A stretch of 64,000 bases of DNA, from assembly GCA_964016885.1 (NCBI GenBank), contig OZ024755.1, positions 27,280,001 to 27,344,000 of the forward strand, read 5' to 3'. Source of the DNA: Eledone cirrhosa. Its lineage: Eukaryota. Of this stretch, positions 4,914 through 63,107 are shown piece by piece. Below the pieces are notes generated by a model. It had not been told where the DNA came from. It did not search any database and saw only the letters and a program-made list of their open reading frames with translations. How positions within the stretch are numbered: position 1 is the stretch's first letter; each line of letters begins with the position of its first letter. The position numbers and the translations under genes are program-made.

Positions 4914-5066
4914 TTCATTATTTCTGAAGACGGCATATGTATGTGTTGGTATGTATATTATATTTGATAATTTGTATAATTTTGTATAATTTTGTACATA
5001 GATCTGTTGAATATGCATACCAATTCTTACACATATATGTCCTAGAAACGATCATTAAATAATGAA
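4914..5066 (+). ncRNA. Degenerate type I hammerhead ribozyme with long stem II
   Basis: Stem I TTCATTATTT/AAATAATGAA (10 bp), CTGAAGA at 4924, long hairpin stem II, GAAAC at 5045, near-palindromic stem III ACGATCAT. Confidence 0.6.
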
Positions 5067-5391
5067 CTTTTTTTGTTTAATATAAGGAACTGTTTCATTG
5101 TTTTATTCATTATTTTTTTAATATTTTATCTTGACTCTGTATTCCGTTTATCTTTCACCGAAAGTGATTTTTGAATGCATCTCTTCTTTCCATGATATCC
5201 GGATTATATTGAGTTCTTCATACGGATTGGACACTACCGTAAACTCTTGGTAGATTTATCTACATATATATCTATATATATATATATATCTATATATATA
5301 TATGTATATATCTATATATATATATATATATATGTATATATCTATATATATATATATATGTATCTATATATATATATATCTATATATGATA

Positions 5392-8300
5392 GACGTATTC
5401 TATTCTATAGCGATTAGGTCTTCAAAATGTTTATTATAAACATACAGAATATTTTCGAATATTCTATGTCTATATTCACATATATATCGCTATTTCAGAG
5501 CATTTATTCCAATTTCTAATTTCTGCCGGACCGGCAACCGCTCTTTCAAACCAGTTCCTGTACACAGCTAAGTATTCTATAAGTCTCTAGCTGTGTCATT
5601 CCCGATAAAAGCACTGGATATGTAGTCCTGATGATTTCTAACAAGAATGAAACGCGTAGATTACTTCCCTTGCTTTTATCGAGAATCTAATTGTAATACG
5701 TGACGTATTCTATTCTATAGCGATTAGGTCTTCAAAATGTTTATTATAAACATACAGAATATTTTCGAATATTCTATGTCTATATTCACATATATATCGC
5801 TATTTCAGAGCATTTATTCCAATTTCTAATTTCTGCCGGACCGGCAACCGCTCTTTCAAACCAGTTCCTGTACACAGCTAAGTATTCTATAAGTCTCTAG
5901 CTGTGTCATTCCCGATAAAAGCACTGGATATGTAGTCCTGATGATTTCTAACAAGAATGAAACGCGTAGATTACTTCCCTTGCTTTTATCGAGAATCTAA
6001 TTGTAATACGTGACGTATTCTATTCTATAGCGATTAGGTCTTCAAAATGTTTATTATAAACATACAGAATATTTTCGAATATTCTATGTCTATATTCACA
6101 TATATATCGCTATTTCAGAGCATTTATTCCAATTTCTAATTTCTGCCGGACCGGCAACCGCTCTTTCAAACCAGTTCCTGTACACAGCTAAGTATTCTAT
6201 AAGTCTCTAGCTGTGTCATTCCCGATAAAAGCACTGGATATGTAGTCCTGATGATTTCTAACAAGAATGAAACGCGTAGATTACTTCCCTTGCTTTTATC
6301 GAGAATCTAATTGTAATACGTGACGTATTCTATTCTATAGCGATTAGGTCTTCAAAATGTTTATTATAAACATACAGAATATTTTCGAATATTCTATGTC
6401 TATATTCACATATATATCGCTATTTCAGAGCATTTATTCCAATTTCTAATTTCTGCCGGACCGGCAACCGCTCTTTCAAACCAGTTCCTGTACACAGCTA
6501 AGTATTCTATAAGTCTCTAGCTGTGTCATTCCCGATAAAAGCACTGGATATGTAGTCCTGATGATTTCTAACAAGAATGAAACGCGTAGATTACTTCCCT
6601 TGCTTTTATCGAGAATCTAATTGTAATACGTGACGTATTCTATTCTATAGCGATTAGGTCTTCAAAATGTTTATTATAAACATACAGAATATTTTCGAAT
6701 ATTCTATGTCTATATTCACATATATATCGCTATTTCAGAGCATTTATTCCAATTTCTAATTTCTGCCGGACCGGCAACCGCTCTTTCAAACCAGTTCCTG
6801 TACACAGCTAAGTATTCTATAAGTCTCTAGCTGTGTCATTCCCGATAAAAGCACTGGATATGTAGTCCTGATGATTTCTAACAAGAATGAAACGCGTAGA
6901 TTACTTCCCTTGCTTTTATCGAGAATCTAATTGTAATACGTGACGTATTCTATTCTATAGCGATTAGGTCTTCAAAATGTTTATTATAAACATACAGAAT
7001 ATTTTCGAATATTCTATGTCTATATTCACATATATATCGCTATTTCAGAGCATTTATTCCAATTTCTAATTTCTGCCGGACCGGCAACCGCTCTTTCAAA
7101 CCAGTTCCTGTACACAGCTAAGTATTCTATAAGTCTCTAGCTGTGTCATTCCCGATAAAAGCACTGGATATGTAGTCCTGATGATTTCTAACAAGAATGA
7201 AACGCGTAGATTACTTCCCTTGCTTTTATCGAGAATCTAATTGTAATACGTGACGTATTCTATTCTATAGCGATTAGGTCTTCAAAATGTTTATTATAAA
7301 CATACAGAATATTTTCGAATATTCTATGTCTATATTCACATATATATCGCTATTTCAGAGCATTTATTCCAATTTCTAATTTCTGCCGGACCGGCAACCG
7401 CTCTTTCAAACCAGTTCCTGTACACAGCTAAGTATTCTATAAGTCTCTAGCTGTGTCATTCCCGATAAAAGCACTGGATATGTAGTCCTGATGATTTCTA
7501 ACAAGAATGAAACGCGTAGATTACTTCCCTTGCTTTTATCGAGAATCTAATTGTAATACGTGACGTATTCTATTCTATAGCGATTAGGTCTTCAAAATGT
7601 TTATTATAAACATACAGAATATTTTCGAATATTCTATGTCTATATTCACATATATATCGCTATTTCAGAGCATTTATTCCAATTTCTAATTTCTGCCGGA
7701 CCGGCAACCGCTCTTTCAAACCAGTTCCTGTACACAGCTAAGTATTCTATAAGTCTCTAGCTGTGTCATTCCCGATAAAAGCACTGGATATGTAGTCCTG
7801 ATGATTTCTAACAAGAATGAAACGCGTAGATTACTTCCCTTGCTTTTATCGAGAATCTAATTGTAATACGTGACGTATTCTATTCTATAGCGATTAGGTC
7901 TTCAAAATGTTTATTATAAACATACAGAATATTTTCGAATATTCTATGTCTATATTCACATATATATCGCTATTTCAGAGCATTTATTCCAATTTCTAAT
8001 TTCTGCCGGACCGGCAACCGCTCTTTCAAACCAGTTCCTGTACACAGCTAAGTATTCTATAAGTCTCTAGCTGTGTCATTCCCGATAAAAGCACTGGATA
8101 TGTAGTCCTGATGATTTCTAACAAGAATGAAACGCGTAGATTACTTCCCTTGCTTTTATCGAGAATCTAATTGTAATACGTGACGTATTCTATTCTATAG
8201 CGATTAGGTCTTCAAAATGTTTATTATAAACATACAGAATATTTTCGAATATTCTATGTCTATATTCACATATATATCGCTATTTCAGAGCATTTATTCC

Positions 8301-62864: not shown

Positions 62865-62943
62865 AGAGATTACAATAATCAAAGTTCAGTTTAAGTCATT
62901 TGACTTAAATGACTTAAACTGAACTTTGATTATTGTAATCTCT
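62865..62943. repeat. Perfect inverted repeat, 37-bp arms, 5-nt loop
   Basis: AGAGATTACAATAATCAAAGTTCAGTTTAAGTCATTT and its reverse complement. Confidence 0.93.
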
Positions 62944-63004
62944 ATATAACTGCTCTGTAAAACAACTGATGTTATTACATTGAGCTATTTATCTTACTGG
63001 TAAT

Positions 63005-63107
63005 AAGATAGTATTGAATGACTATCTTTCACTATTTAAGGTTTGTATAAATAATATATTACCATTAAAGGTTTTATTACATACATAACCATAAATAGTA
63101 TCCTTAA
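63005..63107 (-). ncRNA. Relic hammerhead-like fold, 5' side lost
   Basis: TTAAGGA-t-ACTATTTA...TAAATAGT-GAAA-GATAGT-loop-ACTATC-TT; degenerate core, stem I 5' strand replaced by microsatellite. Related fragment at 51569-51608. Confidence 0.45.

What the first reader, a model, noticed from the sequence alone, without database searches (positions are those of the whole stretch)
4914..63107. About ten further hammerhead folds, mostly unrelated in sequence, alongside Penelope-like elements
Seen: type I HHR-like folds at 4914-5066(+), 11902-11975(-), 12864-12934(-), 23753-23780(-, partial), 31021-31045(+, partial), 31206-31432 (pair), 37278-37359(+), 40889-40978(-), 51865-51981(+) and 63005-63107(-). 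Most have a different palindromic stem III (ATGCGCAT, ACACGTGT, ACTAATTAGT, ACTACGTAGT, ACAATTGT), and many have long stem II. Established: PLE terminal repeats carry type I HHRs with palindromic stem III, and PLEs are the proposed mobilisers of non-LTR retrozymes. Inference: this genome holds a large, diverse, probably under-annotated set of PLE-dependent ribozyme elements.
Basis: partly seen in the sequence, partly recalled or inferred. Interest (0 to 1): 0.75.

Follow-up and report, generated by a model that had tools for sequence, protein, structure and literature searches.

The report
Penelope transposon ends carrying diverse hammerheads
Nine of the ten spots are hammerhead-shaped RNA motifs, predicted to cut themselves, at the tail ends of several Penelope-type jumping genes or of small non-coding repeats that likely borrow their enzymes; the pairing is known, but this animal genome likely holds some 300,000 such motifs, some with unusually long side arms.

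Summary
Mostly real and mostly known. Nine of ten sites are hammerhead-derived: six complete (sites 2, 3, 6, 7, 8, 9), one with a private helix III change (1), one weak minimal form (4), one truncated (5). Site 10 is not a hammerhead: it is the antisense of a Penelope element's 3' hairpins. A descriptor gives 9 hits in the window against 0.08 in shuffles, and 41 against 0.6 in 390 kb sampled elsewhere (about 105 per Mb, roughly 300,000 per genome), so the window is ordinary here. Sites 1, 2, 3, 4, 9 (probably 5, 6) are 3' ends of autonomous Penelope-like elements (PLEs), mostly Hydra clade; only 7 and 8 are non-coding retrozyme-like units. Helices covary, and helix III is palindromic in 11 of 12 families with the loop left free. 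Thousands of heterogeneous PLE hammerheads per genome are published. Not seen in the papers read: helix II domains of 59-115 nt, family-wide U4A/U4C cores, and this count. Cleavage is untested, and copy 5' ends do not cluster at the cut site. The scan noted retrozyme arrays and long-stem hammerheads before, on other DNA of this genome.

The parts
4914..5066 (+). Site 1: type I hammerhead, canonical core, 10-bp helix I, 114-nt helix II, predicted cut after 5056; 3' end (about 3663-5260) of a Hydra-clade PLE. This copy has one private change in the helix III palindrome
11902..11975 (-). Site 2: hammerhead with family-wide U4A core (CAGAAGA), hairpin helix III and interrupted helix I, predicted cut after 11915; 3' end (11798-12814) of a second Hydra-clade PLE
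12864..12934 (-). Site 3: canonical core, 36-nt helix II, 8-nt palindrome, predicted cut after 12872; 3' end (12819-13269) of a third Hydra-type PLE
23745..23780 (-). Site 4: core plus 6-bp helix II, weak helix III, 2-bp proximal helix I; doubtful minimal hammerhead in the 3' UTR of the PLE ORF next to it
24054..25589 (-). 5'-truncated PLE ORF (RT thumb, CX4CxxC linker, GIY-YIG-type endonuclease), Neptune/Nematis-like by motif
31021..31169 (+). Site 5: PLE end cut inside the core (C3-A6 and the 5' strand of helix I lost); full copies are classic minimal hammerheads. Duplicate at 57867-58015
31154..31484 (.). Site 6: two back-to-back short arms, each with a hammerhead (cores at 31292 on -, 31346 on +), 61-nt helix II; relative of site 9. 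Duplicate at 58000-58330
37278..37359 (+). Site 7: canonical core, 49-nt helix II, 10-nt palindrome, predicted cut after 37353; in a 522-nt non-coding unit (about 36862-37478) that occurs as tandem and inverted copies
40889..40978 (-). Site 8: U3-A8 compensated core (UUGAUAA), 59-nt helix II, 10-nt palindrome, predicted cut after 40894; in a 597-nt non-coding unit that forms tandem arrays elsewhere
46783..48081 (+). Endonuclease end and 3' UTR of the Hydra-clade PLE to which site 9 belongs, parted from it by an inserted LINE
51865..51981 (+). Site 9: family-wide U4C core (CCGAGGA), 4-bp helix I, 61-nt helix II, 8-nt palindrome, predicted cut after 51961
62906..63110 (+).

Best explanation
These are the hammerhead-bearing 3' ends of at least five autonomous Penelope-like retrotransposon families and two non-coding tandem units that likely borrow Penelope enzymes; the motifs are predicted to self-cleave, most likely as palindrome-paired dimers. 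Shown: each family has one or two fixed 3' ends 40-250 nt behind the predicted cut, followed by (TA)n, and scattered 5' ends; copies often stand as two opposed arms; the hammerhead lies on the ORF's strand in the terminal repeat. Inferred: the PLE protein nicks (TA)n and starts reverse transcription at those fixed sites, then usually stops early, so nearly every insertion leaves a short hammerhead stub. The high density therefore records insertion history, and most copies are likely passive. Inferred: in transcripts of tandem copies two motifs pair through the helix III palindrome and cut at NUH, probably with protein help, trimming multimers to unit RNAs. The long helix II is a folded, conserved add-on, likely a stabilising or protein-binding arm.
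For: Enrichment 41 against 0.6 in 390 kb. pLTR-ORF-pLTR loci for site 2 (L252-L254), site 9 (L256, 1 of 4 extended loci) and the site 10 family (L171-L173); ORF upstream on the same strand for site 1 (5 of 6 loci), site 3 (4 of 4 extended loci) and site 4 (window). Fixed 3' ends: site 7 +61 (19 copies) and +181 (14), site 8 +80 (11) and +246-251 (12), site 6 +59 (25), site 1 +73 (19), site 10 family +44-49 (15) and +213 (16). Covariation: sites 6/9, 5 of 29 pairs with double changes, 91% of cells paired against 28-44% when slid; site 7, 4 of 17 pairs; site 1, 3 of 24 helix II pairs. Helix III palindromic in 11 of 12 clusters and 18 of 19 sampled hits with the loop free, about 1 in 16 expected by chance. 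Published model: PMC4209133, PMC6765202, PMC11167929.
Against: No cleavage or expression data. 5' ends of copies do not pile up at the predicted cut in any of 10 families. An anole PLE hammerhead was dispensable for insertion in vitro, and no reads ended at its cut (PMC11167929, passages). Three successful families carry U4A or U4C, and U4C is reported to lower activity (PMC3088659). The hammerhead fold is not the lowest-energy fold for any of 9 motifs tested (gap 1.1-3.0 kcal/mol, 8.4 for site 9). Covariation rests on 5-14 related sequences; pair-level counts are matched by 37 and 96 of 500 shuffles, and two of site 7's four double changes reflect one register shift. No ORF was seen for site 6 itself; site 5's link is one locus; units 7 and 8 share no sequence with seven PLE references, so their driver is unidentified.
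Confidence: 0.78

Rival explanations
1. The motifs are kept as folded RNA structures (protein-binding, packaging or dimerisation signals) and cleave little or not at all in vivo.
For: U4A in 49 of 51 site 2 copies, U4C in 23 of 23 site 9 and 29 of 29 site 10-family copies; site 4 has nearly lost helix III yet its family is young. No 5' ends at cut sites. PMC4209133 reports low activity for minimal PLE hammerheads.
Against: The other core positions stay fixed while N7 and H17 vary freely, and site 8 keeps the C3-G8 pair as U3-A8 in 20 of 20 copies, which is the pattern expected from catalysis.
Confidence: 0.15
2. Most sites are independent non-autonomous retrozymes that multiply through circular RNA.
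For: Sites 7 and 8 are non-coding 522- and 597-nt tandem units; contigs of two other runs close the 597-nt unit head to tail.
Against: Five to seven of the nine real sites continue upstream into PLE 3' UTRs and ORFs. Head-to-tail contigs also arise from DNA arrays, and the kind of those runs is not on record.
Confidence: 0.05
3. Chance folds in AT-rich, palindrome-rich DNA.
For: True for site 10; individual folding z-scores are unremarkable for 7 of 12 stretches (above -1); 1-3 of the 41 sampled hits may be chance or double counts.
Against: Shuffle and reversed controls and compensatory changes.
Confidence: 0.02

Closest known systems
Minimal type I hammerheads of metazoan PLEs (Cervera and De la Pena 2014, PMC4209133; parts 1-2 of 4 read)
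   Same: Type I, in pLTRs, palindromic helix III, extra nucleotide before helix II, U3-A8 variant, inverted pairs 100-700 bp apart, thousands of heterogeneous solo copies from truncated PLEs, 2-bp helix I in Drosophila virilis.
   Different: Helix II there is 6-8 bp; here 7 of 41 sampled hits have 59-115 nt domains. Counts there are 2,000-9,000 per genome; here about 300,000 by extrapolation (different descriptors, so only roughly comparable).
Hydra-clade PLEs and their hammerheads (Craig et al. 2021, PMC8557442; passages, section 11, File S1 Hydra sheet and File S2 table read)
   Same: DKT motif, RWK-like motif (RWR here), CxCX5C linker, C-terminal endonuclease, (TA)n target, sense-strand hammerhead near the 3' end with extra nucleotides on both sides of helix II; an octopus member is listed.
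   Different: All Hydra hammerheads in File S2 have canonical cores, short helix II (under about 30 nt) and 4-bp-type helix III with 1-3 nt loops. Here: 36-114 nt helix II in three families, perfect 8-nt palindromes, U4A/U4C cores, and 3' UTRs of 1-3 kb. A spike-moss element in that table has a 53-nt helix II, so moderate elongation has precedent.
Metazoan non-LTR retrozymes (PMC7229834, passages; bioRxiv 10.64898/2026.07.22.740005, parts 1-2 of 5)
   Same: Sites 7 and 8: non-coding tandem units with one type I hammerhead each, proposed PLE-derived; coral has over 6,000 motifs in 16 families, axolotl 126,247.
   Different: Units are 522 and 597 nt with 49-59 nt helix II and PLE-type fixed ends; circular RNA is not shown here.
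Natural hammerhead core variants (Perreault et al. 2011, PMC3088659, passages)
   Same: U3-A8, U4C (viroid), mismatch at the base of stem II and 10-bp palindromic dimer stems (Aedes) are all described.
   Different: U4A does not occur in the main text; U4C fixed in high-copy retrotransposon families is not mentioned in the passages seen.

Membership tests
Type I hammerhead ribozyme | Core CUGANGA / GAAA / UH around three helices, helix I open | tested here: met
   Met for sites 3, 6, 7, the family majority of site 1 and full copies of site 5; site 8 as U3-A8
Type I hammerhead ribozyme | Invariant U4 (sites 2 and 9) | tested here: not met
   U4A in 49 of 51, U4C in 23 of 23 copies; the rest of the architecture is intact, so they are variants of unknown activity
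Type I hammerhead ribozyme | Core and helix I at site 10 | tested here: not met
   No core or helix I in 19 copies shown; antisense to the ORF
Type I hammerhead ribozyme | Helices I and III at site 4 | tested here: inconclusive
   2-bp proximal helix I with a possible distal extension; helix III self-duplex not stable
Type I hammerhead ribozyme | Helices kept by compensatory change | tested here: met
   few sequences, related by descent
Type I hammerhead ribozyme | Self-cleavage at H17 | not testable with these tools
PLE pLTR hammerhead | On the sense strand in the terminal repeat of an RT + GIY-YIG ORF | tested here: met
   Sites 1, 2, 3, 4, 9; site 5 one locus; site 6 only by kinship with site 9
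PLE pLTR hammerhead | Palindromic helix III | tested here: met
   11 of 12 clusters with free loop; site 2 has a hairpin instead
PLE insertions | Fixed 3' ends with optional tail, 5' truncation, inverted arms | tested here: met
Hydra clade of PLEs | DKT, RWK-like motif, CxCX5C linker, C-terminal endonuclease, (TA)n target | tested here: met
   Read by eye in ORFs of L171, L174/L176, L252 against the description; site 3 and 9 ORFs are partial or frameshifted
Hydra clade of PLEs | Placement in an RT tree | not tested
   No tree was built; Pfam gave no hit for these ORFs
Non-LTR retrozyme (sites 7, 8) | Non-coding tandem units, one hammerhead per unit | tested here: met
   522- and 597-nt periods; longest Met-ORF 67 and 82 aa
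Non-LTR retrozyme (sites 7, 8) | Accumulates as linear and circular unit RNA | not testable with these tools

The most novel reading that the evidence does not exclude
This genome is the richest store of hammerhead motifs yet counted (about 300,000, dozens of families), and its Penelope elements have evolved an undescribed enlarged class in which helix II has grown into a selected 50-115 nt folded domain (rod or three-way junction) and the catalytic core is tuned down family-wide (U4A, U4C), so that cutting is gated by palindrome pairing and by binding of the element's own protein to that domain.
Probability: 0.25. Interest if true: 0.65.

Novelty: new variant of a known kind. Interest (0 to 1): 0.4.

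Why it matters
The role of PLE hammerheads is open: they are conserved but slow, and dispensable for insertion in the one in vitro system. This genome offers many young families side by side with intact ORFs, natural core variants, short and very long helix II, and dimer and monomer helix III types. That is a ready panel for asking whether cleavage matters and whether the PLE protein activates it. Standard descriptors with short helix II would miss about a sixth of the motifs here. The basic association is not new.

Tried and rejected
Rfam scan: none of the 150 best of 437 matches shown was a hammerhead; the rest were not displayed. Plain folding of single sites was uninformative. The own-genome search with site 2 alone found nothing; a longer query found 1,012 candidates. 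Sequencing runs: no RNA holder listed; contigs of four runs of unrecorded kind hold sites 8 and 1 and say nothing on expression or circles. 5' ends at the cut site: not enriched in 10 families; the sample is small and favours copies with intact motifs. Palindromes as unique family keys: rejected, one 8-mer is used by 4 clusters plus the site 9 subgroup and another by 2 or more. Site 10 as a hammerhead with a replaced 5' end: rejected. Endonuclease fragments beside two site 9 copies: one belonged to the site 3 family, the other stayed unassigned. Type II/III readings of site 4: no fitting helices by eye. Literature searches for 'long stem II', 'extended helix II', U4C and hammerhead + octopus found nothing on these variants; two key papers (Lunse et al., PMC5785218; Arkhipova et al. 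2017, PMC5850863) were not held, and supplements other than those of PMC8557442 were not read, so they may already describe them. The organism looks like an octopod by inference only.

Full report
Setting. The window lies in a 3.0-Gb animal genome rich in (TA)n, LINEs and PLE fragments. That it is an octopod is inference.

Is it more than chance? Rfam showed no hammerhead among the 150 matches displayed, so I wrote a type I descriptor. With helix II required it gives 4 hits in the array-collapsed window against 0.07 in 100 local dinucleotide shuffles. Without that requirement it gives 9 against 0.08, and 0 in the reversed sequence. Because I allowed U4 variants after seeing sites 2 and 9, the fair test is other DNA: 39 stretches of 10 kb taken at even steps across the genome (a 40th did not exist) give 41 hits in 16 of 39 stretches, against 0.6 in 20 shuffles; with helix II required, 26 against 0.15. 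That is 105 per Mb, bootstrap 54-169, or about 160,000-500,000 per genome. One hit is a nested double count and one or two may be chance. The window's own density (9 in 58 kb) is inside this range, so the window is ordinary for the genome. PLE coding fragments occur in 14 of the 39 stretches.

Site by site. Sites 3, 6 and 7 have canonical cores. Site 1 fails only through one change in this copy; 36 of 37 copies have the perfect palindrome. Site 8 has UUGAUAA in 20 of 20 copies, the U3-A8 swap of the C3-G8 pair described in PMC4209133 and PMC3088659. Site 2 has U4A in 49 of 51 copies and a hairpin helix III; site 9 has U4C in 23 of 23. Site 5 is cut inside the core, while full copies are textbook minimal hammerheads. 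Site 4 keeps core and helix II across subfamilies, but helix III is weak and proximal helix I is 2 bp; I count it as doubtful. Site 10 is wrong: no copy shown has a core or helix I, 15 of 19 lack U16.1, and the stretch is the antisense of the last 100 nt of a PLE with an 830-codon open frame; that family's real hammerhead lies upstream on the sense strand with a U4C core in 29 of 29 copies and is missing from the window copy. Sites 6 and 9 are related.

What carries them. Every family is repeated across the genome: 61 to 2,243 first-look candidates, which are lower bounds. Extending loci showed PLE ORFs upstream on the same strand for site 1 (5 of 6 loci), site 2 (10 of 20 short loci; repeat-ORF-repeat in L252 and L253), site 3 (4 of 4), site 9 (L256, 1 of 4) and site 4 (in the window). 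Site 5 has an endonuclease-like frame upstream in one locus. The ORFs of the site 1, 2 and 10 families show DKT, RWR and CxCX5C motifs, as described for the Hydra clade, and are 30-45% identical to one another; site 4's ORF is Neptune/Nematis-like by its linker. No tree was built. In the window, the endonuclease fragment at 46783-48081 belongs to site 9's element and is parted from it by a LINE. Sites 7 and 8 lie in 522- and 597-nt non-coding units that form tandem and inverted arrays. All families end at one or two fixed points 40-250 nt behind the predicted cut, followed by (TA)n, and have scattered 5' ends. This matches the PLE tail, which PMC11167929 (passages) traces to two internal reverse-transcription starts.

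Is the fold selected? For sites 6/9, 5 of 29 pairs change on both sides, in helices I, II and III, and 91% of cells pair against 28-44% when partners are slid. For site 7, 4 of 17 pairs do, two of them from one register shift. Site 1's helix II folds far better than shuffles (z -5.35) and has 3 double changes against a distant subfamily. A family outside the window with a 97-nt branched helix II has 3 double changes and three different perfect palindromes in helix III. With the helix III loop left free, 11 of 12 clusters and 18 of 19 sampled hits are still palindromic. These sets are small and related, and pair-level counts alone are reached by 37 and 96 of 500 shuffles.

Mechanism. Shown: position, strand, ends, conservation. 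Inferred: the PLE protein nicks (TA)n, starts copying just behind the hammerhead and usually stops early, so each insertion leaves a hammerhead stub; in tandem transcripts two motifs pair through the palindrome and cut, probably helped by protein. Against a large in vivo role: 5' ends do not gather at the cut in any of 10 families; the hammerhead fold is never the lowest-energy fold among 9 motifs; and three successful families carry U4 changes.

Comparison with what is known. PMC4209133 (parts 1-2 of 4) already reports thousands of heterogeneous minimal hammerheads per animal genome, mostly from truncated PLEs, with palindromic helix III, inverted pairs and U3-A8. PMC7229834 (passages) gives over 6,000 motifs in 16 families for a coral and 126,247 for the axolotl. 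The preprint 10.64898/2026.07.22.740005 (parts 1-2 of 5) argues that retrozymes derive from pLTRs. PMC8557442 (passages, section 11, supplement part 2) lists Hydra hammerheads with short helix II and canonical cores, and notes unresolved 'half cores' 35-50 nt apart. PMC6765202 (passages) reviews the dimer model. PMC13282606 (passages) annotates octopus repeats without mentioning ribozymes. I found no description of 59-115 nt helix II domains or of U4A, but two relevant papers were not held. The scan's earlier notes report retrozyme arrays, long stem II and Hydra hammerheads elsewhere in this genome.

Verdict. A real, chance-excluded set of PLE hammerheads with one false call; a known association, with an enlarged-helix variant and a very high count as the new elements. 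Interest 0.4.

Noticed in passing
window 5392-11408: 19 near-identical 310-bp units, each with a canonical hammerhead; a retrozyme-type array that the scan has reported elsewhere.
   Followed up: partly
window 25504-33359 and 52527-60244: Recent segmental duplication (95-99%) carrying single-exon galactosyltransferase genes (31784-32998, 58673-59887, Pfam PF01762) and partial copies near 27427 and 54238.
   Followed up: no
L188:8140, L192:7448, L216:6996, L097, L148: Hammerhead family with a 95-97 nt three-way-junction helix II and symmetric changes in the helix III palindrome; the carrying element was not identified.
   Followed up: partly
L171:1430 and 6146; L252: Young Hydra-clade PLEs with long open frames and U4C or U4A hammerhead cores in both terminal repeats; candidates for in vitro work.
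   Followed up: partly
window 3663-13269: Ends of three different PLE families and the 310-bp array are stacked in one another's (TA)n flanks, as expected from a shared target.
   Followed up: no
window 17452-17854: Older relative (about 80%) of the site 2 element, broken at the core and folded back as a 120-nt palindrome.
   Followed up: partly
window 22573-23534 against 46588-47064 and 52081-52542: A duplicate of the site 9 region that lacks the 5 kb between them.
   Followed up: no
L181:2923-5187: N-terminal part of the site 4 PLE protein holds a long asparagine-rich insert.
   Followed up: no
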